Positions 3,760-60,809 of a stretch of DNA of 64,000 bases are shown in pieces. The stretch comes from Alphaproteobacteria bacterium (GTDB lineage: Bacteria; Pseudomonadota; Alphaproteobacteria; RF32; CAG-239), in NCBI GenBank assembly GCA_017546315.1, contig JAFYXH010000007.1, forward strand, positions 14,508 through 78,507. The letters are read 5' to 3'. Each line of letters opens with the position of its first letter. Position 1 is the first letter of the stretch. Made by a program: the position numbers and the translations under genes. The notes beneath the pieces were generated by a model, which was not told the DNA's origin, did not search any database, and was given only the letters and a program-made list of their open reading frames with translations.

Positions 3760-6294
3760 ATGATTTGGTCAGAAAAAGAATTGGCTAGTTTGGGCGAGAT
3801 GAGCGTCAACATGGTGGCTGAACGTTTTATGAAACGTTTAGGAGAGCCTGAAAATCATGAAATATTTGAAAGAGATAATTTTTCGTATTTATGGGGAATG
3901 CTTGGGGTTGCAGGTATTCGTGGAGTTAGTCATAATCTCTTGGGTAAGATTTGGAATACTTTAAAAGAAAATGGTGTGTTAGAGGCCTTTGATAAAGGGG
4001 TTTTAGGTGATTTTAATCTTAAACTTATGAAAAAGTGTCCTGATAGTAGATTAAGAGCTTGGCAGAATTTTGATAATTTTACGACGGATCAAAAGTTTAA
4101 GAAGATGGTTTTGATGCCTGTTGTTGCTATTGATAGAAGATTTGCACAAGAAGTTGACATGCAGGCGTTCAATCCGATGAGAGTGGTTGGTGTTTTAGAG
4201 CGTTATCCGATGAGTGATGCGGTGAAAATGATGCTTAAAGATATGCAAGGACATGGTGTTGCTTGTGGTATTTCTGGTAAAGAAGTGGTTGAGCATTATG
4301 AAAAAGAAAAAGTGTTAAAAAGACTTTGTGATATTATTGCTTTAGGGAAAAGAAAACTCCAAGAAGATGAAAAGGATTTCTTGTTTAGGTTTATTAGTGA
4401 AGCTGTTGAAGATGGTTTTGGGGTTGAGAATATCGGGATTAGGGATGAAGTTTTTGTTGGATTATTAGCAGATGATGAAGATATGGAGGGGAAATCTCCG
4501 ATTGAGGTTTCTCGTTTAAAAGAGCGTAATGCTGAAATTATTGATTTTGCTAAGAGATTTGATGATAAGTTGGGATTTTTTGAGCAGAGTGCTGCAAAGT
4601 TAATCCGTTATAATACTGCGCATACATCTGAGATGATTGAAAGATGTCTTAAGCTTATGAATGGAGATAATCCTAAAGGGGTAGTTTTTGTTTTGGAATT
4701 AGTAAATCTTAAGCAATATAAGTCTGCGGTAAAGATTTTGATTGAGCTTGCAAAGAAAGGGCGAGCAACAGAGGGAGGGTTGTTTATCCATAGGTTAATC
4801 GGCAATGTTAAAGGTGCTGAAAATATGTTAATGAGCATTTTTAAGCTAAATCTAAAAGTGCTTAAAGATAAAGGATATAATGATATAAATAGCGTATTTA
4901 GGGAGAATGTGGCAAGAATTTATGTTGCTGTGGTTAAGGAGTTTATTAGAGTTGGCGCTTTTCGTGATGCGGTAATATTGTTAAATGATTTGGTAGTTTT
5001 TTCTTGGTTAAAGGGAATTGAAGATATTGAAGAAGAAGTGGTTTTGTTAGCTAACTGGCTTTGTGGTAAGAATAGAGGTTTTGAGCAAGTTTTAGATGCT
5101 TGGGCAAGAGAACTTGGGGTTGAGGTTTTTGTTTATGATGGAAAAAGGCGTATTGGTAATGCAAATGCTGTTAGTAAACGAGCGGAAGAACGCTTTATCT
5201 TTTCTGGTAATGATGGTTATAATGTTAATATTGAGAGAATATTAAGCAAGAAGTATGAAGAAGATAAGAAGCGAAAGGTAGAGGTTAGTGCTATAAGCAC
5301 TAAAGATTTGGAAGTTAAGAATGAAGTTTCTACTAGTGCAATGGGTGAAGATGTTTACAAAGAAGAGATTAAGGTAAACGAAAATGATAGGGTAGCACAT
5401 AGTGAGCAGTTGATTGTTTTTGTTGAAGATGGGGTAAATACTGATAATAACTCGTCTGGTTTAGTTGTTGAGGAAGTTGTTAATACTTTAAGTAGTGATA
5501 GTGTTGAAGAAAATGCAAAAACTTTAGATGTTATGAATATTGAGGGGCAAGATTTTGATGCTGAGAAGAACCTTGAAGGTGGAGATAAAGTTATTGAAAC
5601 AATAACGAGCATTACCGAAGAGGCGATAATTAGCACTAAAGAAGTGGGTGATTTAGTAGAAAAAAGTGTTGTTAAGCAAAATAATGTTGAAGCTGAGTTA
5701 GAAAATCAGGTTTCTATAAGTGAGATGAGTGGTATCAATAATGTTGAAAATACAAGCAGTTTTGAGGTGAAAAGTCTTGAAAATAATGATGATGGATTGA
5801 TGGATGTTATTGGTAGTGTTGAGTTGATGGCTGATGATCCTTTAGAAGCAGCTATTAGGCAAGATGAACAAAATATCATAAATAATGAAATTGCACCAAA
5901 TAATGTTGTAGATAGTGAAGTTAGAGTGCAAAGTGCTGAAAGTAAAGAAGTTGTTTTAGAACCAAAAGAAGAGGGTGGTATTGTTGATGAGGGTAAAAAA
6001 ATAGAGTTTGAAAATGTTAAAACAGATATTGAAGAATGGGGTGAAGACGAAGAAAAAACTGAAAGTGTTTCTAGGATTAAGATCCCTAAGTTTTTGAAAA
6101 TAAACTCTAAAGAAATGGAAACGCAATTTAATAAGATAAAAGAAGTTACGGTTTTGGCGGTTAAAAAAGCTGAAGAAAAGGTTGAAGTAATTAAACAAAA
6201 AGTTGAAGATGGTGATATCGAAGAGCTTAGTAGAGAGGCTAGCAATAGGGTTCGGAGTATTCGAGATAAATTTAAGGGAATTATAAAGAAATGA
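3760..6294 (+). CDS. large hypothetical protein (844 aa) with an acidic low-complexity C-terminal half
   Basis: Long ORF; C-terminal ~350 aa rich in E/V/N/D/S with no recognisable catalytic motif; stop at 6294 abuts the ankyrin gene start. Confidence 0.6.
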   Translation: MIWSEKELASLGEMSVNMVAERFMKRLGEPENHEIFERDNFSYLWGMLGVAGIRGVSHNLLGKIWNTLKENGVLEAFDKGVLGDFNLKLMKKCPDSRLRAWQNFDNFTTDQKFKKMVLMPVVAIDRRFAQEVDMQAFNPMRVVGVLERYPMSDAVKMMLKDMQGHGVACGISGKEVVEHYEKEKVLKRLCDIIALGKRKLQEDEKDFLFRFISEAVEDGFGVENIGIRDEVFVGLLADDEDMEGKSPIEVSRLKERNAEIIDFAKRFDDKLGFFEQSAAKLIRYNTAHTSEMIERCLKLMNGDNPKGVVFVLELVNLKQYKSAVKILIELAKKGRATEGGLFIHRLIGNVKGAENMLMSIFKLNLKVLKDKGYNDINSVFRENVARIYVAVVKEFIRVGAFRDAVILLNDLVVFSWLKGIEDIEEEVVLLANWLCGKNRGFEQVLDAWARELGVEVFVYDGKRRIGNANAVSKRAEERFIFSGNDGYNVNIERILSKKYEEDKKRKVEVSAISTKDLEVKNEVSTSAMGEDVYKEEIKVNENDRVAHSEQLIVFVEDGVNTDNNSSGLVVEEVVNTLSSDSVEENAKTLDVMNIEGQDFDAEKNLEGGDKVIETITSITEEAIISTKEVGDLVEKSVVKQNNVEAELENQVSISEMSGINNVENTSSFEVKSLENNDDGLMDVIGSVELMADDPLEAAIRQDEQNIINNEIAPNNVVDSEVRVQSAESKEVVLEPKEEGGIVDEGKKIEFENVKTDIEEWGEDEEKTESVSRIKIPKFLKINSKEMETQFNKIKEVTVLAVKKAEEKVEVIKQKVEDGDIEELSREASNRVRSIRDKFKGIIKK

Positions 6295-6295
6295 T

Positions 6296-8305
6296 ATGGC
6301 GGGTGTAGAGTTTAATGGTGGTAAAAAAAATATGATTAGGGTTAATATTATGAGAAAAGTTAAGTTAGTTTATTTTTGTTTGTTGTTGTGCGCAATGTTG
6401 GGTGCAAATACTTCTAATGTTGAAGCTGGTGATTTCGATTTTGCAGTGGAAGAATGGGTGGATGAAGAAGTAGAATTAGAAGATGATGTTCTTGCTGATG
6501 AAGAATATGAAGAAGTTGTTGAAGAAGTAGAAGAGTTTGAAGATGAGGGAAATAAGCCAGAGTTTATTCCTGAAGGTGAGATTGATGAGGGGGCTCCTGT
6601 TGCTATTTCTCGTAAAACATCAAAAGTGGTTGGTTCTAAAGAGCTTTTTGATAAGTTAAAATATGGGCAGAAAATTCGTATGGATGATGTTGAGGGGTGG
6701 TTGTTTAATACGTCTGATGTTAATGAATGTCTTGAAAATGGTAAGACTATGTTATTACAGATGGTGGCTTATTCCTCGAATATTGAGGCTATTGCATTGT
6801 TGATTGATCATGGAGCAATATTGGCAACTACTTGTCAGCCTAATTATAATGCTTTATTTGTGGCGGCTCAGAACAATAAATCTCCGGCTGTGGTTGATTT
6901 GTTGATTACTAAAGGTGCTGATATTGTGGTGGAGGATTATGAAGGAAATACTGCTCTTAGTGTGGCGGCTGCTTCTAATCCTAGTGGTGGTGTTGTTGAG
7001 ACATTATTGGAATATGGGTTAAAGATTAACAAACCAAACAAAAGAGGACATACTCCTTTGATGTTGGCGGCTTTTAAGAATGATATTAAAGTTGTTAGAG
7101 AATTATTGAAAAATGGGGCGAATGTTAATCTGGAAGATAAGAATGGTAGGACTGCTTTGATGGCGGCTGCTTTGAGAGGTGATGATGATATTATGCAACT
7201 TCTTATTAAGCATGGGGCTAATTTTAAGGTAGTTGATAAAAACAAAATGAGTGTTCTTGATTATTATAATAAAAATAAATACTTAAAAGATGAAGCATAT
7301 ACAGAAAATAAATACGCTTCTATATCTGAAGTTCTTGAATATCGATATGGGTATGTGAGTGATAATCACTATAAATATAATAAAGATTTAAGAGATGCAG
7401 TGTTTGATGATGAAGCTGAAGCAAAAGTTGATGAAGCGATTAAGAGATTGGCAGATATAAATTCTTTGGATGAATATGGGTGTACCCCTTTGATAAACGC
7501 TGCTCGTAATGATAAATCTTTGAAAGTATTTGAATTGTTGGTTGAAGGTGGGGCGGATGTTAATGCTAGTTGTTTAGAGAAAATTACTCCGTTGATGTTT
7601 GTTTCTACACTTGCGCAAGATAAAGAGCGTGCTAAAGTGGCTATTGAAAAGTTGAAATTGTTAAATGATTATAAGTTAGATATTGACTTAGCAGATGAGG
7701 GTGGAAATACTGCTTTGATGTATGCTTTACAATCAGGGGCTAATATCAATTTTGTGGCTAGTTTGCTTGCGTTGAATGCGGATGTTAATGTAGTTAATAA
7801 GCGAGGTGAAACTCCACTTTGGATTGCGGTTAAACGTAATTTGGGTATAAAGATTATTGAGATGTTAATAGAGTTTGGGGCAGATGTTAATGCTAAAGCT
7901 TTAGATGGTGAAACAATTTTGTGGCATATGTTAAAAAATGGTGAGAGTTCTGAGAAAATTGTCTTGTTGCTTGAGAGCGGAATAGATACATCTGTTGTTA
8001 ATCCAACTGGTAAAACTCCTCTTTGGTATCTTCTTCTTAATGGTGGTAGGGCTGATATTTTGAACGCTTTGATTAAGTTTGAGAAAAATCTGAATGAGCC
8101 TAATGCTGTTGGTGATACGCCGTTGTTGTTTGCAGTTAAGAATGATTATCCGGCTGAGATTATTAAATCTATGCTATATTATGGGGCAGACCCTGAAATG
8201 CGTGATGCTAATGGTATGAATACTATGGATATTATGTCTCAAAATCGCTTCTTTGATATGACAATTAAAGAGCAAACAAGGGCAAAAGTTCTTAATCAGT
8301 GGTGA
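6296..8305 (+). CDS. ankyrin-repeat protein with signal peptide and acidic linker
   Basis: Signal peptide MRKVKLVYFCLLLCAMLGANTSNVEA (true start may be the ATG at 6332 or 6350); acidic stretch EEWVDEEVELEDD...EEVEEFEDE; many canonical ANK repeats (G-TPLM-AA-G---V-LLL--GA-VN). Confidence 0.8.
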   Translation: MAGVEFNGGKKNMIRVNIMRKVKLVYFCLLLCAMLGANTSNVEAGDFDFAVEEWVDEEVELEDDVLADEEYEEVVEEVEEFEDEGNKPEFIPEGEIDEGAPVAISRKTSKVVGSKELFDKLKYGQKIRMDDVEGWLFNTSDVNECLENGKTMLLQMVAYSSNIEAIALLIDHGAILATTCQPNYNALFVAAQNNKSPAVVDLLITKGADIVVEDYEGNTALSVAAASNPSGGVVETLLEYGLKINKPNKRGHTPLMLAAFKNDIKVVRELLKNGANVNLEDKNGRTALMAAALRGDDDIMQLLIKHGANFKVVDKNKMSVLDYYNKNKYLKDEAYTENKYASISEVLEYRYGYVSDNHYKYNKDLRDAVFDDEAEAKVDEAIKRLADINSLDEYGCTPLINAARNDKSLKVFELLVEGGADVNASCLEKITPLMFVSTLAQDKERAKVAIEKLKLLNDYKLDIDLADEGGNTALMYALQSGANINFVASLLALNADVNVVNKRGETPLWIAVKRNLGIKIIEMLIEFGADVNAKALDGETILWHMLKNGESSEKIVLLLESGIDTSVVNPTGKTPLWYLLLNGGRADILNALIKFEKNLNEPNAVGDTPLLFAVKNDYPAEIIKSMLYYGADPEMRDANGMNTMDIMSQNRFFDMTIKEQTRAKVLNQW

Positions 8306-10890: not shown

Positions 10891-12018
<1,128 letters not shown>

Positions 12019-13173
12019 ATGATAAAAATAAACGGAAGACCAGGACTTAAGAAAAATAAAAAAATATCTGGAAAACCCGATAGAGCTAATTTGGGATTGC
12101 CTAGTGTTTTGAATGGGCAACCTAATTATGTGGCAATTGATTTGGGCACCAACTCGTGTCGTTTGGTGGTTGCTACTCCTACTACTACATCTTTTAGAGT
12201 TGTTGAGACATATTCTAAAGTTGTAAGATTGGGTGAGGGAATTATTCAGGATAATGAATTGTCTATGAAGGCAATGAGAAGAACTCTTCAGGCTTTGAAG
12301 GTATGCAGAGGCGTTATTGATGAGTATATGCCTATTGTTAGTTCTCGTTTTGTTGCAACAGCTGCTTGTAGAAGAGCTAAAAATGTTTCTTCTTTTGTTG
12401 AGATGGTTAAAAAAGAAGCTGGTATTGAATTAGAAGTTATTTCATCTAAGGAAGAAGCTAGGCTTTCTGTGGTTGGGTGTTTACCTTTGCTTAATAGAAA
12501 TATCAAAAGAGTTTTGGTTTTTGATATTGGTGGAGGGTCAACTCAAATTTCTTTGGCTAGAGTTACTGATTTTGGTAAGACTTTTATTGAAGGATTTGTG
12601 TCTCTTCCTTATGGTGTGGTTACTATTTCTGAGGCTTTTGCAGGGCATGAAATGAGTAAGTTAGAGTATTCTACTGTATTAGAGCGAACTCAAAGTATTT
12701 TGCAAGAATTTGAAGATAAACATCAAATTATGGATGCTATACTTAATCAGGAAATTCAAGTGATTGGAACATCTGGAACGGTTACTGTTATTGGAGCGGT
12801 TCATCTTAAGCTTCCCCGTTATAATCGCTCGGCTGTTGATGGTATTGCTATTTCTCAGCCTGATATTAGTCATACAATAAATAAAATTAAGACTATGGGA
12901 GCTGAAGGAAGATGTAAACATCCTTGTATTGGACAGAGTAAATCTGATCTGACAATTGCTGGATGTGCTATTATTGAAGCGTTGACTACATTTTGGCCAA
13001 TTTCTGAGATTACTGTGGCTGATCGTGGTATTAGAGAGGGTATTTTGCTTGATTTGATGCACTCTAAGAGATTTAATCAAAGTAATAAGAATCATTACAA
13101 GAAAAAAAGGGGACGTTTTCCTTTTGAAAGAAGAGGAGGGGATAATGGAAGAGCTAGCAAGAAAAATAAGTAG
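12019..13173 (+). CDS. ppx: Ppx/GppA-family phosphatase (exopolyphosphatase/pppGpp phosphohydrolase), paralogue 1
   Basis: N-terminal VAIDLGTNSCRLVVA actin-like ATPase motif; start abuts the ccrM stop. Confidence 0.75.
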   Translation: MIKINGRPGLKKNKKISGKPDRANLGLPSVLNGQPNYVAIDLGTNSCRLVVATPTTTSFRVVETYSKVVRLGEGIIQDNELSMKAMRRTLQALKVCRGVIDEYMPIVSSRFVATAACRRAKNVSSFVEMVKKEAGIELEVISSKEEARLSVVGCLPLLNRNIKRVLVFDIGGGSTQISLARVTDFGKTFIEGFVSLPYGVVTISEAFAGHEMSKLEYSTVLERTQSILQEFEDKHQIMDAILNQEIQVIGTSGTVTVIGAVHLKLPRYNRSAVDGIAISQPDISHTINKIKTMGAEGRCKHPCIGQSKSDLTIAGCAIIEALTTFWPISEITVADRGIREGILLDLMHSKRFNQSNKNHYKKKRGRFPFERRGGDNGRASKKNK

Positions 13174-14095
13174 TGATGAGTGTGTGGCTGCTTTAGATTT
13201 GGGGACGAATTCTAGTAGATTATTGATTGCTGCTTGTGATGGTACTCCTGTTTATCGTGATGTTAGGCATGTTGCATTAGGTGAAGGATTAGCTGAAAAT
13301 AAATGTTTTAGCGACAAGGCAATGGAAAGGGCTATTTGCTCTTATATGGATTTTAGCGAAATGATGGAAGTTTATGGAGTTAAAAAATATAGAGCCATTG
13401 CAACTGCTGCTTGTAGAATGAGTAATAATACAAAAAGTTTTTTAGAGGAAATTAAAAAGGTTTCTAATATTGATGTTGATGTTATTAGTGAATATGAAGA
13501 AGCGCGTTTAACATTGAAAGGTGCTATGCTTAATGCGCCAAAAGATAAGAAATATATTTTTGTATATGATTTAGGTGGAGGTTCAACGGAAGTTTCTTTG
13601 GCTACTAATGAAGAAGAGCCAAAAATTATTGCAACAGTTTCTATTCCGCTTGGTGCAAGAAACGCGACAGAAATGTATGGTTTGAGAAATTATTTTCATA
13701 AAAGAGCATGTAGATTACGTGCTGATGTTGGTAGATATATGGATGATTTTTTAAGTAAAATCAAAGATATTGATTATAAAGATAATGTTGCTTTGGTTGC
13801 TACATCATCAACACCATTAAGATTGGCGGCTGCTTTTAGTAAACTTCCTAAGTATGACAAATTTGCGGCTGATGGTATGGAAGTAAAGATTAAAGATTTG
13901 GATGAATTGATTGCTAGTATGATAAAATTCAACTATAAGCAGAGGGTTAGTTCTGTGTATATTGGTCCTAATAGAGCTCCTATTTTTGTGGCTGCTCTTG
14001 TGATTTTTAAGGCTATATATGATAAATTAGAAGTTGAAAGCATGGTGGCATCTCTTAAGGCTGCTCAAGAGGCAATTATATTTGAGTTATTATAA
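13145..14095 (+). CDS. Ppx/GppA-family phosphatase, paralogue 2
   Basis: VAALDLGTNSSRLLIA motif; strong RBS gaggagggg before the ATG at 13145 (the ORF-track start at 13124 is TTG); overlaps the 3' end of paralogue 1 by about 29 bp. Confidence 0.7.
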   Translation: MEELARKISSDECVAALDLGTNSSRLLIAACDGTPVYRDVRHVALGEGLAENKCFSDKAMERAICSYMDFSEMMEVYGVKKYRAIATAACRMSNNTKSFLEEIKKVSNIDVDVISEYEEARLTLKGAMLNAPKDKKYIFVYDLGGGSTEVSLATNEEEPKIIATVSIPLGARNATEMYGLRNYFHKRACRLRADVGRYMDDFLSKIKDIDYKDNVALVATSSTPLRLAAAFSKLPKYDKFAADGMEVKIKDLDELIASMIKFNYKQRVSSVYIGPNRAPIFVAALVIFKAIYDKLEVESMVASLKAAQEAIIFELL

Positions 14096-39898: not shown

Positions 39899-40168
39899 GA
39901 GCGCCTTCTTTGTTTGATTCTAGATAAAAGAGCATAGATTTGTTTTTGTTTTTTAGCAATAGTTTTAAGTATTTTATTATTTTTTTAGTAAAAATCACTT
40001 TTTTCTGCATTATATATAAAATATTATATATTAGAATGAAAAATCATAGCGTTAATACAAAAATTGATAAAATTTATCTTGATTTTTTTTTAATAGTTGT
40101 GTATTTGTGTGTTAAGCGAGAAGTTATTTACTTCTTTAATTGACGGTTTAATAAATAAAGGAGGAATT

Positions 40169-40960
40169 ATGACTTCTATTATCACAGAAAACGGATATAA
40201 AAATGGTGTTGGATTTTTTGATAGAGTATCCAAACAAATTGTAATCAAGCATCCTTGCGTTAGAAAAAAAGAAGCACAAGAAGTGTTTGCTTGGATTGAA
40301 GAGGCTAAGACGACGGGGTTGAAATCTTTTATCGTTGGCGTTGGAATGATGGATAACTTCCTTGATTGCAATGAAGAAGATAATATTTATAACGTTTCTA
40401 GAGAGTTGGTTAGAGGTGTTGTTGAAAAAACTAAAAGTGTTGAAGCTGCTTTTTTGCTTGAGGTTTTAGTTAGACTTGATAAATGTGCAGAGCTTGAAAA
40501 ATTGAGTTTAAAATGCGTTGGTTTTAATGAACATCCTGCTGTTTTTGAAATGTTGTTAAAAAATATTAGAGTATTGAAAAGTTTAAGATGTTTAGAGTTA
40601 AACGGTTCTTTCTTTGGAGCTGAGCAATTGGTTGATTTGGCTGATTTTGTTAGCAGAACATCTATTGCAAGAATTGTTTGGCCTGAAGTTCAATTAGATG
40701 AAGATGTTGTTAGTATTATTGCACGTAAATTTGATGAGAATATTGCTTTAGTTGATGCAACTTTTGCACCACTTGAGCTTCGTAAAATTGCAAAGAGAAA
40801 TAGACGTAGATTTTTTAAATTTATGTATAATTCAATGAGTTTATCTGAGGAAGATGTTCGTTTGATTAAAGAATATAAAGATTCTGCTTATTATGCGTTG
40901 AATTATGAATATCAAAAGCTTGCTGATATGAATAAAACTTTGGGCGGTATTTTAGTTTAA
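40169..40960 (+). CDS. leucine-rich-repeat (ribonuclease-inhibitor-type) protein, eukaryote-like
   Basis: Repeating L..L.L..C.L......L..LL..N ~28-aa units (LEVLVRLDKCAELEKLSLKCVGFNEHPAVFEMLLKNIRVLKSLRCLELNGSFF); RBS aaggagg before the ATG at 40169. Confidence 0.6.
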   Translation: MTSIITENGYKNGVGFFDRVSKQIVIKHPCVRKKEAQEVFAWIEEAKTTGLKSFIVGVGMMDNFLDCNEEDNIYNVSRELVRGVVEKTKSVEAAFLLEVLVRLDKCAELEKLSLKCVGFNEHPAVFEMLLKNIRVLKSLRCLELNGSFFGAEQLVDLADFVSRTSIARIVWPEVQLDEDVVSIIARKFDENIALVDATFAPLELRKIAKRNRRRFFKFMYNSMSLSEEDVRLIKEYKDSAYYALNYEYQKLADMNKTLGGILV

Positions 40961-40990: not shown

Positions 40991-41025
40991 AAAACACCTT
41001 ATTAAAAAAATAAGGTGTTTTCTTT
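40991..41025. terminator. bidirectional intrinsic terminator between convergent genes
   Basis: aaaacacctta/taaggtgtttt hairpin with A-run 5' and T-run 3'. Confidence 0.65.
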
Positions 41026-41042: not shown

Positions 41043-42044
41043 TTATTTCTTAAGAGATTCCTCAATGGCAACAGCAACAGCAACAGTTGCACCTACCATT
41101 GGGTTATTTCCCATACCGATCAATCCCATCATTTCTACGTGAGCAGGAACTGATGATGAACCAGCAAATTGCGCATCACCGTGCATACGCCCCATTGTAT
41201 CAGTCATACCGTAAGAAGCAGGACCTGCAGCAACGTTATCTGGGTGAAGAGTTCTACCAGTACCACCACCTGATGCTACTGAGAAGTATTTCTTACCATG
41301 TTCCATAGCCCATTTTTTGTATGTGCCAGCAACTGGGTGTTGGAAGCGAGTTGGGTTTGTTGAGTTACCAGTAATTGATACATCAACACCTTCCTTAATC
41401 ATAATAGCAACACCTTCTGATACATCATCTGCACCATAGCATTTTACTTTTGCTTTGTCGCCATTTGAGAATGCTTTTTCGTGAACGATTTTGAGTTCAC
41501 CTGTGGTATAATCATATTCTGTTTCAACAGCTGTAAAACCATTGATACGAGAAATGATGTATGCAGCATCTTTACCCAAACCGTTTAAGATAACACGAAG
41601 AGGTTCTTTTCTTACTTTGTTTGCAGAGCGTGCAATACCAATTGCGCCTTCTGCTGCAGCAAAAGATTCGTGTCCGGCTAAGAAGCAGAAGCATTTTGTT
41701 TCTTCTCTTAACAGCATTGCAGCAAGATTACCATGACCAAGGCCTACTTCACGTTGGTCAGCAACTGATCCTGGTACGCAAAATGCTTGCAAGCCAATAC
41801 CGATTTTCTCAGCAGCTTCAGAAGCATTCTTTACGCCCTCTTTCAATGCAATCGCACAACCTAATGTGTATGCCCATACAGCATTTTCAAAAGCGATTGG
41901 TTGAATGCCTTTAACTAGCTTTTCTACATCTATACCATGTGATGTGCAAAGAGCTTTTGCTTCGTCTAAATCTTTGAAACCATACTTAGCAAGAACTGGA
42001 GTGATGGTGTTTATTCTTCTATCATATCCTTCAAATTGTTGCAT
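41043..42044 (-). CDS. GGGtGRT-family protein
   Basis: Contains the eponymous SGGGTGRT motif; 333 aa, glycine/alanine-rich. Confidence 0.7.
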   Translation of the reverse strand: MQQFEGYDRRINTITPVLAKYGFKDLDEAKALCTSHGIDVEKLVKGIQPIAFENAVWAYTLGCAIALKEGVKNASEAAEKIGIGLQAFCVPGSVADQREVGLGHGNLAAMLLREETKCFCFLAGHESFAAAEGAIGIARSANKVRKEPLRVILNGLGKDAAYIISRINGFTAVETEYDYTTGELKIVHEKAFSNGDKAKVKCYGADDVSEGVAIMIKEGVDVSITGNSTNPTRFQHPVAGTYKKWAMEHGKKYFSVASGGGTGRTLHPDNVAAGPASYGMTDTMGRMHGDAQFAGSSSVPAHVEMMGLIGMGNNPMVGATVAVAVAIEESLKK

Positions 42045-42047
42045 GGC

Positions 42048-42752
42048 TTATTCCTTTCTTGGATCTATTTTCTTTACGGCATCTTCGAAACGTCCGTAAG
42101 TCTTGATATTGTTTTCAAGAGCTGTTTTAGCGTCTGTACCGTTGCGGATTGCTTCCATCATTTTGCCAAGGTGAACAAACTTGTATCCGATGATTTCGTT
42201 GTTTTCATCAACGCCGATTTCCAAAACATAGCCTTCAGCCATTTCTAAATAGCGTGGACCTTTTACTTTTGTAGAATACATTGTTCCAACTTGTGAGCGT
42301 AAACCTTTACCTAAATCTTCAAGACCTGCTCCAATTGGTAAACCATTTTCAGAGAAAGCTGTTTGTGTTCTACCATATACGATTTGAAGGAACAATTCTC
42401 TCATTGCAACGTTGATTGCATCACAAACTAAGTCTGTGTTTAATGCTTCAAGAATTGTCTTTCCTGGTAAGATTTCTGCGGCCATAGCAGCTGAGTGTGT
42501 CATACCTGAACAACCAATTGTTTCAACCAAAGCTTCTTCAATAACACCTTCTTTTACGTTGAGTGTTAGTTTGCAAGTACCTTGTTGTGGGGCACAGCAA
42601 CCGCAACCGTGTGTTAAACCTGAGATGTCTGAAATTTGTTTAGCTTTTACCCATTTTCCTTCTTCTGGAATTGGAGCTGGTTCGTGTCTTGCACCTTTGT
42701 ATAGTGGACACATTTGCTCAACTTCGTGTGAGCATTGATGATTACATGCCAT
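42048..42752 (-). CDS. NifU/IscU-like iron-sulfur cluster scaffold-domain protein, partner of the GGGtGRT protein
   Basis: IscU-like block ETIGCSGMTHSAAMAAEILPGKTILEA and an upstream Cys cluster (GCGCCAP); 3-bp spacing to the GGGtGRT gene. Confidence 0.6.
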   Translation of the reverse strand: MACNHQCSHEVEQMCPLYKGARHEPAPIPEEGKWVKAKQISDISGLTHGCGCCAPQQGTCKLTLNVKEGVIEEALVETIGCSGMTHSAAMAAEILPGKTILEALNTDLVCDAINVAMRELFLQIVYGRTQTAFSENGLPIGAGLEDLGKGLRSQVGTMYSTKVKGPRYLEMAEGYVLEIGVDENNEIIGYKFVHLGKMMEAIRNGTDAKTALENNIKTYGRFEDAVKKIDPRKE

Positions 42753-43027
42753 ATATCGTCTCCATTTATTAATATATTATTATGCGTGGTATATATTAGC
42801 TTAAAAAATTTAAATGGCAACCAAATATTAAAGGTTGAATAAAAAGTCTAATTATTCACTTTAGGAATAATTTTATTAAAGATGAATAATAGTGAATATT
42901 TTTATTTTGTTATTTTTCAATATGTTATATACGTATTCTAATGTTGATGAATATAACACTTTGAATGATGAATATATGCGGGCATAAAAAATACCGCAAA
43001 TGCGGTATTGTATGGGAATGAGCTTAA

Positions 43028-43594
43028 CTATATAGTGTGTTGATGGATGACTGATATAGCTTTTGCTAAGATGATGTTTGCACCAACCCTAACCTCTTTT
43101 GGGTGGTAAGACTTATTTTCTGTTAATATTGAAATGGTATTTTGCGAATGTACTTGCAATCTTCTTAATTGCACGAATTCGCCCTCTTTTATTAAGAAAA
43201 CACCATTTTCTAGCGTTGTTTTTGTGTAGTCAAGGATAACTAAAGAATGCTTTGGAAAGAGTGGTGTCATTGTATCATCTGGGAGTATGTATCCCTTTAT
43301 ATTAGCAGGATCTGTGTATGTGTTGGGCGGTAAAATTTGCCATTTACTACCTTCTGGTAAATTATATAATTCAGGGTTTAGTAAATCTATCAAGTATGTA
43401 GAAGATTTTGAGATGCCTAAGACGCTATTTAAATCTGTGTTTAAGATATTAGCTATTTTTTGTGCAAGATCTATCTTTAGTTCTACTTGATTATTTTCTA
43501 TCTTTGTAAGATTTGCTTGCGACATACCTATTTCTTCAGCAAGTTTTGAGACACTGATATTATTATTTTTTCGAAGTTGTTTAATATTGTTCAT
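43028..43594 (-). CDS. XRE-family HTH transcriptional regulator with a cI/LexA-like (S24-like) C-terminal domain
   Basis: N-terminal HTH (ISVSKLAEEIGMSQANLTKIENN); C-terminal DTMTP in the position of the S24 'DSM' active-site motif (Thr replacing Ser). Confidence 0.6.
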   Translation of the reverse strand: MNNIKQLRKNNNISVSKLAEEIGMSQANLTKIENNQVELKIDLAQKIANILNTDLNSVLGISKSSTYLIDLLNPELYNLPEGSKWQILPPNTYTDPANIKGYILPDDTMTPLFPKHSLVILDYTKTTLENGVFLIKEGEFVQLRRLQVHSQNTISILTENKSYHPKEVRVGANIILAKAISVIHQHTI

Positions 43595-43599
43595 TTATT

Positions 43600-44403
43600 T
43601 TAATCCGTGTTATCTTTGTTTGTGGTTGGGGGAAGTATTTTTATATATCTTTTTAATTCTTCTTCATTCTTTTTTATCCAAGACAAGTCACACCCTTCTA
43701 TATCGCTTGAGATTGTAATTGAACAGTAATTTGTTTTTAGTTCTTCACCAAGTGTGCCGCAACCTTCGTTAACCGCCTCTAGCACAATTGCAGGAACTTG
43801 TTTTGCACTTATTTTATTATCTTGATTTAAGTAATTACACGTTGCTTCAACATACTTATCATTAGCTGTTATTATATTGTATAAAACCTTGCCATCGTTT
43901 GTGTATGTTCGCATTTTGCCATCTAGTTTATCTTCTACATAAGTATATTGCTTACTCATATATCCATTAGGATAAAATTCTTTTGCTACACCTTCTTTAT
44001 ATCCATTGACATATGGGATTATTTTTTCAACTTTGTTTTCTGGATAATAAGTCTCCTCTATACCATGTAAGCGACCTTTTTTATATTCTCTAATATAACG
44101 CTTATCTCCATTGGTTTCAAATGATTTCATTGTACCATCTATTAGACCTTGGGTTACGGGAATTGAGCGAATAATCTCTCCATCTTCATAAAGTCTAATT
44201 TCACCAGTTATAGGTTTGTTTTTTGCATCTACACAATATGTTACTCTATCTTTTTTGCGGTAACGACATTTTGTGTGTTTCAAGAGATATATTTTTGAGG
44301 TTTCTTTATTGTTCTCAGTGTTTGCTAGAGCAGTTTTTTCAGTAATAGCTTGGTTGATTATGAAAGATGCTGTGAGTAGTAAAAATAATTTTCCGTATGA
44401 CAT
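43600..44403 (-). CDS. secreted MORN-variant-repeat (YwqK-like) protein
   Basis: Signal peptide; repeated G-K-EG / YY.NG units; 5 bp upstream of the XRE regulator gene on the same strand. Confidence 0.5.
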   Translation of the reverse strand: MSYGKLFLLLTASFIINQAITEKTALANTENNKETSKIYLLKHTKCRYRKKDRVTYCVDAKNKPITGEIRLYEDGEIIRSIPVTQGLIDGTMKSFETNGDKRYIREYKKGRLHGIEETYYPENKVEKIIPYVNGYKEGVAKEFYPNGYMSKQYTYVEDKLDGKMRTYTNDGKVLYNIITANDKYVEATCNYLNQDNKISAKQVPAIVLEAVNEGCGTLGEELKTNYCSITISSDIEGCDLSWIKKNEEELKRYIKILPPTTNKDNTD

Positions 44404-56018: not shown

Positions 56019-57083
56019 ATGTCTCGTGCCGAAGATATTTTTGAAAAACTAGTTTATTTTGGCGAAGATGCTATTGATGAGTTTATATTAAATCGCCAAA
56101 CAGAAGAGTTGTTTATGGATTTTAAGCAAGCAGTTTCTGATGGTAAATGTATGAGAGCACTTCATCAAAACGACAGAAGAAATTTGGCAAAAGCAATATC
56201 TGCTTTTGGCAACTCTGAAGGTGGTGTTTTGGTTTGGGGTGTTGAGTGTGCAAGAGATGTTGAGCTTGGAGATGTTGCGCAAGCAAAGGTTAAGGTTAAA
56301 AATGTTCATAGATTTTTGAGCTGGCTTGAGGGGGCAATTTCTGGATGCACAATTCCTTCTCATAATAAGGTTAGAAATCATATAATTTCGGTTGATAAAA
56401 ATGGTGATGGTTTTTTGGCTACTTATATTCCTAAATCGGATATTGCGCCACTGATGACAACAAGTGGAAGTCAAGTTTATATTAGGTCTGGGTCTAACAA
56501 TGTGCCTGCACCCTATTCTGTTATTGCGGGAATGTTTGGCCGACGTCCTCAACCCAATATTGAGATGGTTATTGATAATAAGATGATCGAAGTGGCGAAA
56601 GAAAATGAAGATGATATTTTTAGACCACTTAAGAAAAGTAGTAAAAAAGAGAGTGTGGTTAAGGTTCGATTTTCGCTATTGGCTGAGAATAACTCTAATG
56701 CTATTGCTAAGGAAGTATTTTTATCTTGCAATACCTTGAGTGTGGGGGGAGATAAGAATAAGGTAAACTTTTATTATGATTCTCAATTAGAGAACTTAGC
56801 GTCCATGCATAATTCTATTAACCTTATAACTCCGATTGAAATGCGTATTCCACCTAGGGCATTGTTTAGTTGTGCTAAGGCAGAAATTAGATTTTACAAT
56901 GATATTTCAGAAGATTTTTTGATGGAAGGTGTTATTGGAGCTGAGGGGAGCATTCCTAAGAGTTTTAGAATTTCTATATCTAAGAATGATTTACGCTCTT
57001 TTGTGGCACAAGCTTTGAAGAAAAATGCTAATTTAGAAGTTCTGACAAATGAGTTTTTTTCGGAGTATTTGAATAGCGAGTAA
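56019..57083 (+). CDS. AlbA_2 (Schlafen-like putative DNA-binding) domain protein
   Basis: N-terminal block EELFMDFKQ...AISAFGNSEGGVLVWGVE matches the AlbA_2/divergent-AAA signature (E..L.FK ... AFAN..GG.L..GV). Confidence 0.5.
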   Translation: MSRAEDIFEKLVYFGEDAIDEFILNRQTEELFMDFKQAVSDGKCMRALHQNDRRNLAKAISAFGNSEGGVLVWGVECARDVELGDVAQAKVKVKNVHRFLSWLEGAISGCTIPSHNKVRNHIISVDKNGDGFLATYIPKSDIAPLMTTSGSQVYIRSGSNNVPAPYSVIAGMFGRRPQPNIEMVIDNKMIEVAKENEDDIFRPLKKSSKKESVVKVRFSLLAENNSNAIAKEVFLSCNTLSVGGDKNKVNFYYDSQLENLASMHNSINLITPIEMRIPPRALFSCAKAEIRFYNDISEDFLMEGVIGAEGSIPKSFRISISKNDLRSFVAQALKKNANLEVLTNEFFSEYLNSE

Positions 57084-57578: not shown

Positions 57579-57659
57579 CTAAAAAGACTGTTTTTTACTT
57601 GAGTTTGTATGTGTTTTATGATATAATTTGTTTAAGTTTAGCTTTTAATGGAGGGGGGA

Positions 57660-60600
57660 ATGAATAATAATAAAAATAATTCCTTTAATAGTGAAAGAAG
57701 TGCACTAATATTTGATTTTTTAAAAGAAGTAAATAGTGCTATACGCAGTGTTAACTCTAATAAAAATAATGATGATATTTACAAATTGTGGGATGTAATC
57801 TACCATGCAGCAGCGTTAAACGATATTAACGGTGATATAAGCAGTTTTGTTTTGGATAAAGTTAAGGAATTGGGTTTATTTAACAAAGAAGAAGAAAAGA
57901 AATTTGAAGAAAAATTAATTCCTTGGGGTGAAAAAAATAATAATAAATATAATGAACTTAGAGAAAGAAGGAATAAAGAAGGCGAAGACAACTTTAATAA
58001 TAATTTGTTCTCCAGAACTCTTTATGATAAATCTTTTTCAAATGTGCAACAAAGTGAAATTTATAGAGCTTCTGTTGATGCTATGTTTGAGCAATATAAA
58101 GGTGAAAAACAGGTAAACCTTACTGATGTTTTTATGGAAAATATTGAAAAAAGCGGTAAATTTAATGATGAAGAAAAGAAAAAGTTGAAAGAATTTTCGT
58201 TACAATCCGAAGAAGCTGTAAAGAATGTGGAAAAACTTTCCGAAGATATGAAAAAACACTTTGATGAAAAAATAAAATTTGAGAACGGGATTAACGGATC
58301 GAAAAATAAAAATAACAATATGAAGCAAAATGATTATTATGATGGGTTTGATAGTGTATTGTTTGACAAGGTGTATTCGGATAAATCTTTTTCCGGCGAG
58401 CAAAGGGGTAAAATTATTCTAGCTTCTATGGATGCTATGTATGCGCAATACAAAGATGGTAAACAAGTAAATCTTACTGAAGTTTTTATGGAAAGTATTG
58501 AAAAAAGCGGTAAATTTAATGATGAAGAAAAGAAAAAACTGAAGGGTTTTTCTTTGGAGGCTGCTGAAAAGGTAAAGGACATAGATAAAGTTCCGGAGCG
58601 ATTGGTAAAGAATTTTGAAAAAGCACTCAAATTTGAAGAAGATTTAAAAAAGATGAATAATATTAACAAAGCTAATGCTTTGAATGGTTCGGAATATAAT
58701 CCCAGTGATGAAATTAAGAAACAAAAAGAAGAGTTGGAGAAATTAAGAGCCGAAGGTGAAGCTAGGGATAAAAAATGGCGTGAAGAGCAAAAAGCAAAAG
58801 ATGAAGCATGGGCGGAAAAAAATAAATCATCAAATCAGGCTATTAACGATATGTCTTTTATAGGACTTGCTATTACGTCTCCTTCATTGGCTAGCATGCC
58901 TCCAATGCAAAGAAATTTTATATATAGTGAAATAAATAGCTTGATGGAACAGTTAAAAGATAATGGGCAGCTTAGCAAAAGAGCTGATGTGTTATTAAAA
59001 GAAAGTATTGTCAATAATAAAGAGTTTAGTCAATATGATAAGGATTTTGCTTTTAAGTGTATTGAGCAATATGACAATTTATTTAAAAATGATGAAAGAC
59101 CGGGGTTTGTTGCTAAAAAAGAAACCCAAGCTAACGCTTCTAAAATTACTGAAACGACAAATCAAAATACTGAGAAAAATGCTTTATCTGAATATATAGA
59201 AAGTGCTCGTAATAAAATGATCAAAGAAAAAGCTCCTACGGGTTTTGCATACATCATTTTGTGTGATATGGATAAAAATCCTAATATCAGTAAAGAAACC
59301 AAAGATATGTTTTTGAATATGGCTATTAAGAGTAGTAAAGAAATTCAAAATCAAGGTTTAAAGATGACAACTGATGAAGGAGTTTATGCATTTGCCGAGG
59401 TCTTAAGTAAAAAGATAAAAGAAAATAAAGAGTTTGGAGAAAAAGGTTTTGAGATAGTTAAAGATATTATGAAAAATGGAGAATCTTTCAACAAAATGTT
59501 ATTTGCTAAAGAAGTGAAAAACATAGTGTTGAACCTTGGTAATGATAATCAGACAAAGACAGATAAAAAAGAAGAAATCAAAAACGATAATAAGCCAATA
59601 GAAGTGAATAAAGAGATAAAAAGACCTGAAACTCCTAAAACAGAAAAAACTGAGATGGAAGCTAAATTAGAGCGTGTAGAAAAATCAGATGAATATAAAA
59701 ATCTTATCAACTCGGGTAATTTTAATGATGCTCAAAAAGATGCTATAAAACTTGATATGGCTAAAAAACTTAAATCTGAATATTTTGAAAATGCTAAAGA
59801 TAAAATAAAAAAAGAAAACGCTTCAATTGGTTTTGCATATATGATACTTGCTAGCATGGATGAGAACCCAAAGATTAGCCAAAAAACTAAAGATGTTTTT
59901 TTGAATATGGCGATTAAATGTAGCAAAGAGATAACAGCCGAGGGATTGAAGATGTCTTCTCCTGAAGGTATGCGAGCAATGGCTGAAAAAATCTCCAAAG
60001 AGATGAAAGAGAATAAGGAGTTTGGTGATGAGGGATTGAAAGCTATTGTAGATACCTTTAACAATGGCAAAGCGATAAATAGTTTATCTTATGCAGATAA
60101 GTTAAAGGATTTTGTTTTTAAGAGATTAAATATTAGTGATGATGCTTCTAAACAAATCAATCAAGAAACAACAGGACTTAAAGAAACAATAGAAAAGAGT
60201 GGAAAACAAACAGAAAGTATCACCCAATTAAAGAATGAAAAAAATGAAATAAAAGAAAAGCCTGTTGAAGAGATTTTGGTTGATAAAATAATCCGAAATG
60301 GGAGTTTTTCTAAAGAAGCACAAAATGAGATATTAAATATTGCGATAGAAATTGAACAAGCAAAACTTAAAAGTGAAACTGATAAAAATAAAACAACATC
60401 AGAAGCTTTTATGGATAAAGTTATCAATAGTGATAAAATTAGTGACAAAGAAAAAGATGAATTGCTTAAAATGTCTATAAAGACAGAAAATAAGGAAATT
60501 GAAAAAACTGAAGGCGGGAAAAGGCTTTATTTTGATGAGAATAAAAAGGAGCGATTTGACCAATTAAAATTAAGTGATAAAGCATTAGAAAGTTTGGAAG

Positions 60601-60809
60601 CTAAAGTTGAAAATGGCAAATTTTCGGTAAAAATACCTGAAAATGATGAGATAAAAAAAGAAGTTATTAGAAGTATTAAAGTGCAAGAAGGCATTGAAAA
60701 TATCAGAAATGCTAAGAGAGATGAAAAAGCAACAGAAAGTAAGCCTACTTTTGACAACAATATGACTACAAATATGGCTAAATTTATGGCATCTCATAAT
60801 CAGCGATAA
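57660..60809 (+). CDS. giant repetitive lysine/glutamate/asparagine-rich hypothetical protein (paralogue A, ~1050 aa) with internal duplications and a shared C-terminal module
   Basis: RBS ggagggggg before the ATG at 57660; two pairs of internal ~60-90-aa direct repeats (KQVNLT(D/E)VFME(N/S)IEKSGKFNDEEKKKLK; GFAY(I/M)IL..MD.NP.IS..TKD.FLNMAIK); the last ~185 aa are similar to the C-terminus of the next gene. Confidence 0.6.
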   Translation: MNNNKNNSFNSERSALIFDFLKEVNSAIRSVNSNKNNDDIYKLWDVIYHAAALNDINGDISSFVLDKVKELGLFNKEEEKKFEEKLIPWGEKNNNKYNELRERRNKEGEDNFNNNLFSRTLYDKSFSNVQQSEIYRASVDAMFEQYKGEKQVNLTDVFMENIEKSGKFNDEEKKKLKEFSLQSEEAVKNVEKLSEDMKKHFDEKIKFENGINGSKNKNNNMKQNDYYDGFDSVLFDKVYSDKSFSGEQRGKIILASMDAMYAQYKDGKQVNLTEVFMESIEKSGKFNDEEKKKLKGFSLEAAEKVKDIDKVPERLVKNFEKALKFEEDLKKMNNINKANALNGSEYNPSDEIKKQKEELEKLRAEGEARDKKWREEQKAKDEAWAEKNKSSNQAINDMSFIGLAITSPSLASMPPMQRNFIYSEINSLMEQLKDNGQLSKRADVLLKESIVNNKEFSQYDKDFAFKCIEQYDNLFKNDERPGFVAKKETQANASKITETTNQNTEKNALSEYIESARNKMIKEKAPTGFAYIILCDMDKNPNISKETKDMFLNMAIKSSKEIQNQGLKMTTDEGVYAFAEVLSKKIKENKEFGEKGFEIVKDIMKNGESFNKMLFAKEVKNIVLNLGNDNQTKTDKKEEIKNDNKPIEVNKEIKRPETPKTEKTEMEAKLERVEKSDEYKNLINSGNFNDAQKDAIKLDMAKKLKSEYFENAKDKIKKENASIGFAYMILASMDENPKISQKTKDVFLNMAIKCSKEITAEGLKMSSPEGMRAMAEKISKEMKENKEFGDEGLKAIVDTFNNGKAINSLSYADKLKDFVFKRLNISDDASKQINQETTGLKETIEKSGKQTESITQLKNEKNEIKEKPVEEILVDKIIRNGSFSKEAQNEILNIAIEIEQAKLKSETDKNKTTSEAFMDKVINSDKISDKEKDELLKMSIKTENKEIEKTEGGKRLYFDENKKERFDQLKLSDKALESLEAKVENGKFSVKIPENDEIKKEVIRSIKVQEGIENIRNAKRDEKATESKPTFDNNMTTNMAKFMASHNQR

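What the first reader, a model, noticed from the sequence alone, without database searches (positions are those of the whole stretch)
41043..42752. GGGtGRT / NifU-like two-gene cassette in an alphaproteobacterial context
A protein carrying the literal GGGTGRT motif sits 3 bp downstream of a protein with an IscU/NifU-like Cys scaffold block. To my knowledge this gene pair is distributed sporadically, mainly in anaerobic Firmicutes, Bacteroidetes and Fusobacteria, and its function is unknown. Here it sits between an LRR effector-like gene and an XRE regulator and is bracketed by a bidirectional terminator and a 270-bp AT-rich region, consistent with horizontal acquisition. It is a handle on an uncharacterised Fe-S-associated system.
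Basis: partly seen in the sequence, partly recalled or inferred. Interest (0 to 1): 0.55.

Follow-up and report, generated by a model that had tools for sequence, protein, structure and literature searches.

The report
Conserved GGGtGRT / NifU-like gene pair
The two genes are a normal, long-resident copy of an extremely conserved, always-paired operon of unknown function that is found in many gut anaerobes; it probably encodes a two-subunit iron-sulfur enzyme and is not a recently imported island.

Summary
On the minus strand, a 234-aa IscU-like protein (42752..42048) lies 3 nt upstream of a 333-aa PF14057 protein (42044..41043) that carries a literal GGGTGRT.

The evidence argues against recent horizontal acquisition:
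- GC3, codon usage and the GC content of the flanking intergenic DNA are typical of the window.
- No mobility genes or meaningful flanking repeats were found.
- A different alphaproteobacterial MAG (ThrRS 88% identical) has the pair at the same syntenic position. Its proteins are 98.5% and 99.6% identical, but only 64-68% of 4-fold sites match.
- All NCBI-named alphaproteobacterial copies form one clade (NJ bootstrap 64%).

The pair is a free-standing bicistronic operon. It was present in 79 of 80 genomes sampled across many phyla at 70-87% identity, has no conserved neighbour, and the two genes co-evolve.

The partner is not a canonical IscU. It scores below the curated cut-offs, only 1 of 3 ligand Cys is in register, and there is no LPPVK motif. 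It does have four universally invariant Cys.

GGGtGRT has no relative among solved structures. Published data show high expression and repression under iron limitation.

My best reading is an iron-demanding two-subunit Fe-S enzyme, possibly acting on phosphorylated C3 metabolites. The function remains unproven.

The parts
42048..42752 (-). Gene 1: 234-aa IscU-fold ('NifU-like') subunit. It has an N-terminal Cys-containing extension (aa 1-50), an IscU-like core (aa ~53-123) and a family-specific C-terminal domain (aa ~125-234). Invariant C53, C60, C81, C110 and H48.
   Evidence: ORF. Weak PF01592/TIGR03419/TIGR01999 matches below cut-off. PDB profile hit to IscU 4eb5, E 3e-5. Invariant residues across 87 sequences.
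41043..42044 (-). Gene 2: 333-aa GGGtGRT protein (PF14057). It has an N-terminal helical domain (aa ~7-112), a Rossmann-like alpha/beta domain (aa ~118-257) and an ultra-conserved loop region (aa 258-315) that includes GGGTGRT at aa 259-265.
   Evidence: Pfam E 5e-197. AF2 model with pLDDT 79.6 and pTM 0.80, low confidence at 260-299. Invariant residues.
42045..42060 (-). Gene junction: 3-nt spacer (42047..42045), stop TAA (42050..42048) and a Shine-Dalgarno-like AAAGGA (42057..42052) inside the 3' end of gene 1, 7 nt before the ATG of gene 2. This layout suggests translational coupling.
   Evidence: Read directly from the sequence. The median spacer in 86 loci is ~20 nt, and 91% are <=60 nt.
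42753..42989 (-). Promoter and 5' leader of the bicistronic operon. SD GGAG at 42763..42760. Promoter-like hexamers TTGCCA/TAATAT at 42820..42793. No known RNA element.
   Evidence: Sequence. Consensus scan, not above chance. Rfam gave nothing credible. GC is 23.6%, about the window's intergenic mean.
40991..41021 (.). Hairpin terminator (13-bp stem, A-run before, T-run after) shared by the pair and the convergent gene 40097..40960.
   Evidence: Terminator scan and inverted repeat I3.
42990..43009 (-). Terminator-like hairpin that ends the upstream XRE/S24 gene. It implies that the pair is transcribed from its own promoter.
   Evidence: Terminator scan.

Best explanation
This is a resident, vertically inherited copy of the widespread NifU-like/GGGtGRT bicistronic operon, within a lineage of anaerobic, host-associated gut Alphaproteobacteria. 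It is not a recently acquired island.

Shown:
- The two genes form a self-contained transcription unit with its own promoter region and terminator.
- They are always adjacent and in the same order, and they co-evolve.
- They are under extreme purifying selection.

Inferred:
- The two products form a complex.
- The IscU-fold subunit permanently holds one Fe-S cluster, most likely [4Fe-4S] or [2Fe-2S], on its four invariant cysteines (C53, C60, C81, C110).
- The GGGtGRT subunit supplies the substrate site. It has a Rossmann-like domain plus invariant Gly/Ser/Thr/Arg/His loops of the kind that bind phosphate groups.
- The complex works as an abundant, iron-demanding metabolic enzyme of fermentative anaerobes, not as Fe-S assembly machinery.

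More speculative: the substrate is a phosphorylated C3 or glycolytic intermediate.
For: Residency:
- L082 has the same synteny. Between the window and L082 the proteins are 98.5%/99.6% identical but only 68%/64% of 4-fold sites match. Neighbouring genes are 49-88% identical.
- GC3, codon usage and spacer GC are host-like.
- No integrase, transposase or tRNA lies within +/-10 kb, and there are no meaningful flanking repeats.
- The alphaproteobacterial clade has 64/100 NJ bootstrap support, and its core 88/100.
- Only 10 of 72,556 plasmid records carry the gene, and all are non-mobilizable.

Unit:
- The pair is present in 79/80 loci.
- Median spacer is 20 nt. Mirror-tree r = 0.71, Mantel p = 0.001.
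- No neighbouring family is enriched: at most 5/139 among first neighbours and 2/136 among second neighbours.

Fe-S subunit that is not a scaffold:
- Four Cys and H48 are invariant in 87 sequences.
- Only C81 aligns with an IscU ligand. There is no Asp39 or LPPVK equivalent, and scores fall below the curated cut-offs.

Behaviour of an iron-demanding enzyme:
- BT0173-74 falls 11- to 12.8-fold in iron-depleted B. thetaiotaomicron (PMC10434189).
- The protein is 7.1-fold higher with excess iron in C. pasteurianum, the same pattern as hydrogenase (PMC5395762).
- It is highly expressed in vivo in several phyla (PMC11204068).

Link to phosphorylated C3 or glycolytic metabolism:
- In 4 of 4 loci of a divergent subfamily the pair sits with an ApgM-type phosphoglycerate mutase and a His_Phos_1 phosphatase/mutase, and this persists through a rearrangement.
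- BT0173-4::Tn came out of the same screen as pfkA::Tn (bioRxiv 10.64898/2026.04.10.717545).
Against: No biochemical evidence exists for a complex, a cluster or an activity.

The AF2 model of the partner is poor (pLDDT 52.9), and the motif region of GGGtGRT is modelled with low confidence.

There is no significant structural or sequence relative in the PDB, so 'enzyme' rests on conservation, abundance and regulation alone.

The phosphoglycerate-mutase association is confined to one divergent lineage and could be lineage synteny. The mainstream family, including this window, has no such neighbour.

The B. thetaiotaomicron transposon phenotype is mild (2-fold), and the mutants grow normally in vitro.

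NJ support for the alphaproteobacterial clade is only moderate. The taxonomy of L084 and L087 could not be confirmed.
Confidence: 0.5

Rival explanations
1. A dedicated Fe-S cluster biogenesis, carrier or repair module. The NifU-like protein would be a transient scaffold and GGGtGRT its accessory partner, acting as iron or sulfur donor or as a chaperone.
For: The partner has IscU-like sequence similarity and databases annotate it as NifU or an Fe-S scaffold. The distribution is restricted to anaerobes rich in Fe-S enzymes.
Against: Scores are below every curated cut-off. Only 1 of 3 IscU ligand Cys is in register, and there is no Asp39, His105 or LPPVK equivalent. Four invariant Cys suggest a permanently bound cluster. 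No cysteine desulfurase lies near the window's copy, and no Cys-desulfurase-type family stood out among the neighbours that were scanned. Expression falls under iron limitation, like Fe-S client enzymes. From general knowledge, the suf and isc systems are typically induced or maintained under those conditions.
Confidence: 0.2
2. One reading: a recently acquired horizontal island in an alphaproteobacterial genome, marked by its terminator and its AT-rich flank.
For: Total GC of the two genes (41% and 40%) is the highest in the window. Identity to copies in other phyla is very high at 76-87%. The family tree does not follow the species tree.
Against: The extra GC lies in codon positions 1 and 2, which reflects a Gly/Ala-rich protein. 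GC3 equals the window mean. The flanks are ordinary. There are no mobility genes or repeats. L082 has the pair at the same locus, with about one third of 4-fold sites changed. The alphaproteobacterial copies are monophyletic in the NJ trees. The high cross-phylum identity reflects constraint: the whole family collapses into essentially one 50%-identity cluster.
Confidence: 0.05
3. An iron- or redox-sensing or iron-storage protein pair, i.e. a non-catalytic Fe-S protein that tunes glycolytic flux or buffers iron.
For: High abundance and iron-dependent expression. A mild regulatory phenotype on Cur/Roc in B. thetaiotaomicron without a growth defect. No pathway neighbours.
Against: About 50 invariant polar residues are clustered in Gly-rich loops, which is more typical of an active site than of a storage protein. 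There is no DNA-binding or signalling domain.
Confidence: 0.12

Closest known systems
PF14057 'GGGtGRT protein' with its adjacent 'NifU' gene, e.g. Bacteroides thetaiotaomicron BT0173-BT0174
   Same: Full-length Pfam match. Same gene order and tight spacing. 73-79% identity to copies from Bacteroidales and Firmicutes. The identical protein is already labelled 'GGGtGRT protein [Alphaproteobacteria bacterium]' in NCBI nr.
   Different: The host lineage is a low-GC gut alphaproteobacterial MAG. The sequences belong to a distinct alphaproteobacterial sub-clade. No function is established for any member.
IscU / NifU N-terminal Fe-S scaffold (PF01592; E. coli IscU, human ISCU, A. fulgidus IscU 4eb5)
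   Same: Detectable similarity over ~55-65 residues that includes the 'GCxx' ligand Cys (C81 = IscU Cys63). The predicted beta-sheet plus helices follow the same order.
   Different: It is about 100 residues longer, with an N-terminal extension and a ~110-aa C-terminal domain. The first and third ligand Cys are not in register. There is no Asp39, no His105-Cys106 and no LPPVK chaperone motif. Scores are below the gathering and equivalog cut-offs. There is no desulfurase partner.
Divergent GGGtGRT subfamily clustered with phosphoglycerate mutases (loci L089, L092, L093, L094)
   Same: The same two-gene core. GGGtGRT is 53-57% and the partner 50% identical to the window proteins, and the four invariant Cys are kept.
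   Different: The partner lacks the N-terminal Cys-rich stretch. The pair is embedded in the order apgM - pair - two-TM unknown protein - His_Phos_1, with overlapping start and stop codons. The window has no such neighbours.
Two-subunit Fe-S hydro-lyases of anaerobes, e.g. L-serine dehydratase alpha/beta (functional analogy only, from general knowledge)
   Same: Two adjacent genes, a presumed Fe-S cluster, an anaerobe-biased distribution and iron-dependent abundance.
   Different: No sequence or fold similarity was detected. This is a lead, not a tested relationship.

Membership tests
PF14057 GGGtGRT family | Score above the Pfam gathering threshold over the full-length profile | tested here: met
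   653.8 bits against a cut-off of 27; profile positions 1-326 of 327.
PF14057 GGGtGRT family | Conserved GGGtGRT sequence motif | tested here: met
   GGGTGRT at aa 259-265. G259-T265 are invariant in 87 sequences.
PF14057 GGGtGRT family | NifU-like partner gene immediately upstream on the same strand | tested here: met
   3-nt spacer in the window. The same arrangement occurs in 79/80 genome loci; the one exception is cut off by a contig end.
IscU/NifU_N Fe-S scaffold (PF01592, TIGR01999, TIGR03419, TIGR01994) | Score at or above the curated cut-offs | tested here: not met
   PF01592: 21.2 against 22. TIGR03419: 25.2 against 187.9. TIGR01999: 21.3 against 192.4. TIGR01994: 19.9 against 92.5.
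IscU/NifU_N Fe-S scaffold (PF01592, TIGR01999, TIGR03419, TIGR01994) | Three ligand cysteines in register (E. coli C37, C63, C106) plus Asp39 | tested here: not met
   In the HMM alignments only C81 matches (IscU C63). The IscU 'ACGD' Cys aligns with Q57, there is no Asp, and C110 aligns upstream of the LPPVK region. Residue numbering of E. coli IscU is from general knowledge.
IscU/NifU_N Fe-S scaffold (PF01592, TIGR01999, TIGR03419, TIGR01994) | LPPVK chaperone-recognition motif and His105 | tested here: not met
   No LPPVK-like sequence in the 234-aa protein. The alignment with 4eb5 ends before its 'GGLPKQ' without a counterpart.
IscU/NifU_N Fe-S scaffold (PF01592, TIGR01999, TIGR03419, TIGR01994) | Genomic association with a cysteine desulfurase (IscS/NifS/SufS) | tested here: not met
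   No Aminotran_5 gene within +/-10 kb of the window's copy. No desulfurase family appears among the listed neighbour families.
IscU/NifU_N Fe-S scaffold (PF01592, TIGR01999, TIGR03419, TIGR01994) | Binds a labile cluster and transfers it to apo-proteins | not testable with these tools
   Requires anaerobic biochemistry.
Recently acquired genomic island | Composition or codon usage deviating from the host | tested here: not met
   GC3 is 0.251/0.268 against 0.257 +/- 0.039. Codon-usage distance is within the range of the other minus-strand genes.
Recently acquired genomic island | Mobility genes, a tRNA target or flanking direct repeats | tested here: not met
   None within +/-10 kb. Only short, imperfect, chance-level repeats.
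Recently acquired genomic island | Absent from the same locus in related genomes | tested here: not met
   Present at the same locus in L082, whose ThrRS is 88% identical.

The most novel reading that the evidence does not exclude
The NifU-like/GGGtGRT pair is a new class of two-subunit Fe-S enzyme. An IscU-derived domain would have been recruited as a permanent cluster-binding subunit. The enzyme would catalyse an unrecognised, iron-dependent reaction on a phosphorylated C3 or glycolytic intermediate in fermentative anaerobes, which would explain its abundance in gut and rumen metaproteomes and its near-frozen sequence.
Probability: 0.25. Interest if true: 0.75.

Novelty: new member of a known kind. 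Interest (0 to 1): 0.35.

Why it matters
The instance in this window is ordinary. It is a well-behaved resident copy, and the identical protein is already annotated under the family name in NCBI.

The family itself is a worthwhile target. It is among the most conserved proteins of unknown function in anaerobes, at about 75-85% identity across phyla. It is highly expressed in gut and rumen communities, regulated by iron, and has no solved structure.

This analysis adds testable handles: four invariant Cys in a non-canonical IscU-fold subunit; strict pairing and co-evolution; no relative among solved structures; and a divergent subfamily physically linked to phosphoglycerate mutases.

For the window's organism, the pair is a marker of an anaerobic, fermentative lifestyle, which is unusual among Alphaproteobacteria.

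Tried and rejected
- Sequence and profile searches of GGGtGRT against the PDB found nothing: a single chance hit to ferritin, E 1.1.
- Pfam scans of separate domains gave only a sub-threshold DUF1858 hit (E 0.013, aa 14-44). I did not rely on it.
- The AF2 model of the partner had pLDDT 52.9, so it was not used for fold search.
- Apparent long 'fusion' proteins in the 50%-identity representative library (P0241, P0249, P0264, P0309, P0311) are chimeric or frameshifted assemblies. They are not Rosetta-stone fusions.
- Guilt by association in 75 or more mainstream loci found no enriched neighbour. PduL/PTAC at 5/139 was the best.
- Rfam found nothing credible in the leader.
- The promoter scan was not above chance.
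- Plasmid and phage collections gave only rare hits: large non-mobilizable replicons and unannotated virome contigs.
- The first bootstrap run used an incomplete clade definition and was redone.
Full report
**1. What is in the sequence**

Two minus-strand ORFs occupy exactly the stated interval. The first is 42752..42048 (234 aa). The second is 42044..41043 (333 aa).
- The stop codon of the first is at 42050..42048 and the ATG of the second at 42044..42042, which leaves a 3-nt spacer.
- An AAAGGA Shine-Dalgarno-like element lies inside the 3' end of the first gene. A GGAG lies 7 nt upstream of the first gene's ATG.
- The 333-aa protein contains the literal GGGTGRT (aa 259-265). It matches PF14057 end to end (E 5e-197).
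- The 234-aa protein has a weak IscU/NifU-like block. PF01592 scores 21.2 bits against a gathering score of 22. The NCBIfam IscU/NifU/SufU models score 20-25 bits against cut-offs of 92-192. A family profile hits A. fulgidus IscU (4eb5) at E 3e-5 over aa 59-123.
- A 13-bp hairpin at 40991-41021 sits between the convergent genes.
- A second terminator-like hairpin at 43009..42990 ends the upstream XRE/S24 gene, so the pair has its own 5' region.
- Rfam finds no credible RNA element in that region.

The one exception is the neighbour's 'LRR effector-like' label, which could not be verified (no Pfam hit at E<=10).

**2. Host**

The identical GGGtGRT and ThrRS proteins are in NCBI as 'MAG: Alphaproteobacteria bacterium'. 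The contig comes from the metagenome sample XIEF21-1_SAMN15830085. The window also encodes the following:
- a CcrM-type N6 methylase with a RAMA domain
- a 669-aa ankyrin-repeat protein
- a MORN-repeat protein
- formate-THF ligase
- several large orphan ORFs

This fits a low-GC (about 33%), host-associated, anaerobic alphaproteobacterium.

**3. Is it a recently acquired island? No.**
- The pair has the highest total GC in the window (41% and 40%), but the excess lies in codon positions 1 and 2. GC3 is 0.251/0.268 against a window mean of 0.257 +/- 0.039.
- Synonymous codon usage falls within the spread of the other minus-strand genes.
- The 275-bp upstream spacer is 23.6% GC against a mean of 24.7% for 24 intergenic regions.
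- No integrase, transposase or tRNA lies within +/-10 kb. Flanking repeats are only chance-level.
- L082, a 329-kb contig of another alphaproteobacterial MAG, carries both genes in the same context: GT4-ThrRS-(one extra ORF)-MORN-XRE/S24-[pair]-unknown-RmuC-MurG-AP endonuclease.
- Between the window and L082, ThrRS is 88% identical, MurG 79%, RmuC 73% and XRE/MORN about 50%. GGGtGRT is 98.5% and the partner 99.6% identical. Even so, only 68% and 64% of their 4-fold degenerate sites match.

The cassette was therefore already in place before these lineages split. It has accumulated many silent changes and almost no amino-acid changes.

NJ trees support this picture. Every NCBI-named alphaproteobacterial copy, the window, L082, L084, L087 and L011 form one clade. 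Bootstrap support is 64/100 for all 22 sequences and 88/100 for the core. The nearest groups are Elusimicrobia and Melainabacteria/Gastranaerophilales. More distant clade members (L084, L087, L011) have different flanks, so synteny holds only at roughly genus or family level.

The gene is rare on plasmids (10 of 72,556 records, all non-mobilizable). In the phage collection it appears only in a few unannotated virome contigs.

An ancient acquisition by the ancestor of this gut lineage is plausible, because the family tree does not track the species tree. It was not tested rigorously.

**4. The family**
- In 79 of 80 GTDB-species loci the NifU-like gene lies directly upstream of GGGtGRT. The one exception is cut off by a contig end.
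- The loci come from Firmicutes, Bacteroidaceae, Melainabacteria, Elusimicrobia, Planctomycetes, Desulfobacterota, Coriobacteriia and others. Partner hits add Lentisphaerae/Victivallis and Opitutales. GGGtGRT hits add Methanobacteriaceae.
- Identity to the window proteins is 76-87% for GGGtGRT and 70-84% for the partner.
- At 50% clustering the family collapses to essentially one cluster plus fragments and chimeras.
- The median spacer is about 20 nt. Pairwise distances of the two proteins correlate (r = 0.71, Mantel p = 0.001).
- First and second neighbours are essentially random: 152 and 137 Pfam families among 139 and 136 neighbours. The best is PduL at 5/139.

It is a self-contained two-gene unit.

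**5. What the proteins look like**

GGGtGRT:
- It has no sequence relative among solved structures, by single sequence or by profile.
- An AF2 model (pLDDT 79.6, pTM 0.80) shows an N-terminal helical domain, a Rossmann-like alpha/beta domain and C-terminal helices. The most conserved stretch, aa 260-299 including the motif, is modelled at low confidence. This could mean that it folds only against a partner or cofactor, which is inference.
- Foldseek against the PDB gives no hit with E<0.001, only generic Rossmann-like domains.
- Across 87 sequences it has about 50 invariant polar residues, including H104, H125, H267, H288, H302, R264 and S296-298. It has no universally invariant Cys.

The partner:
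- It has exactly four universally invariant Cys (C53, C60, C81, C110) plus H48.
- In HMM alignments only C81 coincides with an IscU ligand. The Asp and the LPPVK/His-Cys region have no counterpart.

It is an IscU-fold derivative, not a member of the IscU scaffold family.

**6. Literature**

The pair is known as BT0173-BT0174 in B. thetaiotaomicron.
- It is repressed 11- to 12.8-fold under iron depletion (PMC10434189).
- Transposon insertions in it emerged, with pfkA and an M16 peptidase, from a screen for loss of glucose-dependent Cur inhibition. The effect was 2-fold, with no growth defect (bioRxiv 10.64898/2026.04.10.717545).
- In C. pasteurianum the protein is 7.1-fold more abundant with excess iron, like hydrogenase (PMC5395762 Table 2, my reading of the columns).
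- It is highly expressed in vivo in several phyla and is explicitly described as uncharacterised (PMC11204068, PMC12078515, PMC7035244).

**7. A functional lead**

A divergent subfamily has GGGtGRT at 53-57% and the partner at 50% identity to the window proteins. In four of four loci (L089, L092, L093, L094) it lies in a cluster of ApgM-type phosphoglycerate mutase, the pair, a two-TM unknown protein and a His_Phos_1 phosphatase/mutase.
- ApgM scores above the NF003104 equivalog cut-off.
- Start and stop codons overlap within the cluster.
- One locus is rearranged and also carries a GpmI-type iPGM.

This lead fits the pfkA-like screen hit and the phosphate-binding-like Gly/Ser/Thr/Arg loops. 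Together they point to a phosphorylated C3 or glycolytic substrate. The link is confined to one lineage and is absent from the window, so it remains a hypothesis.

**8. Verdict**

The cassette is real and correctly identified. It is an ordinary, long-resident member of a known, uncharacterised, extremely conserved gene pair. The horizontal-acquisition reading based on local features is not supported.

The most likely mechanism is a two-subunit, iron-demanding Fe-S enzyme. The IscU-fold subunit would carry a permanent cluster on four Cys, and GGGtGRT would be the substrate-binding subunit. An Fe-S biogenesis role is the main rival.

The family deserves experimental attention. This particular occurrence adds little beyond documenting the pair in gut Alphaproteobacteria.

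Noticed in passing
L089:3997-8606, L092:2572-8580, L093:391-6859, L094:301-5405: A divergent GGGtGRT/NifU-like subfamily is embedded in a conserved cluster with an ApgM-type phosphoglycerate mutase, a 317-332-aa two-TM protein of unknown function and a His_Phos_1 phosphatase/mutase. L093 also has a GpmI-type iPGM. An XRE-type HTH gene is adjacent in three of the four loci.
   Followed up: partly
window 6296-8305, 43600-44403, 40097-40960, 3760-6294, 57648-60809, 60887-63841: Eukaryote-like repeat proteins (a 669-aa ankyrin-repeat protein and a MORN-repeat protein) and several large ORFs without any Pfam match (844, 1053 and 984 aa, plus the 287-aa 'LRR-like' neighbour). These suggest a host- or protist-associated lifestyle for this gut alphaproteobacterial MAG.
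   Followed up: partly
window 10915-12018: A CcrM-type N6/N4 DNA methylase with a C-terminal RAMA domain, consistent with the alphaproteobacterial assignment.
   Followed up: no
window 12019-13173 and 13124-14095: Two tandem, slightly overlapping Ppx/GppA-family phosphatase paralogues.
   Followed up: no
window 1-64000: Very strong positive GC skew (up to +0.58) wherever genes are on the + strand. It falls to about zero or negative in the minus-strand block at 41-47 kb. Minus-strand genes as a group have a shifted codon usage.
   Followed up: partly
window 43028-43594; L082:8503-9057: An XRE HTH + S24-like (LexA/CI-type) protein with a weak match to the Ehrlichia ECH_1013 regulator family lies directly upstream of the pair in both syntenic genomes. 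It is only 50% identical between them and has its own terminator. No evidence that it regulates the pair.
   Followed up: partly
L087:11033-12153: In a 90%-identical relative the pair is followed 30 nt downstream, on the same strand, by a Thioredoxin_3 (redox-active disulfide protein) gene and a BPL_N gene, and is preceded by HSP20. This arrangement did not stand out among the other loci surveyed.
   Followed up: no
first neighbours of the pair in loci L002-L087 (alignment A4): PduL-type phosphate propanoyltransferase (PF06130) is the most frequent immediate neighbour of the pair, but in only 5 of 139 neighbours. Which loci carry it was not checked.
   Followed up: no
proteins P0241, P0249, P0264, P0309, P0311, P0345, P0356: Many 'representatives' of the family in the 50%-identity library are frameshifted or chimeric metagenome gene calls, for example an ABC-transporter or SusD-like N-terminus joined to a GGGtGRT C-terminus. 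They could be mistaken for domain fusions.
   Followed up: yes
window 56019-57083: A Schlafen/AlbA_2-domain protein next to unannotated ORFs, possibly part of a defence or regulatory locus.
   Followed up: no
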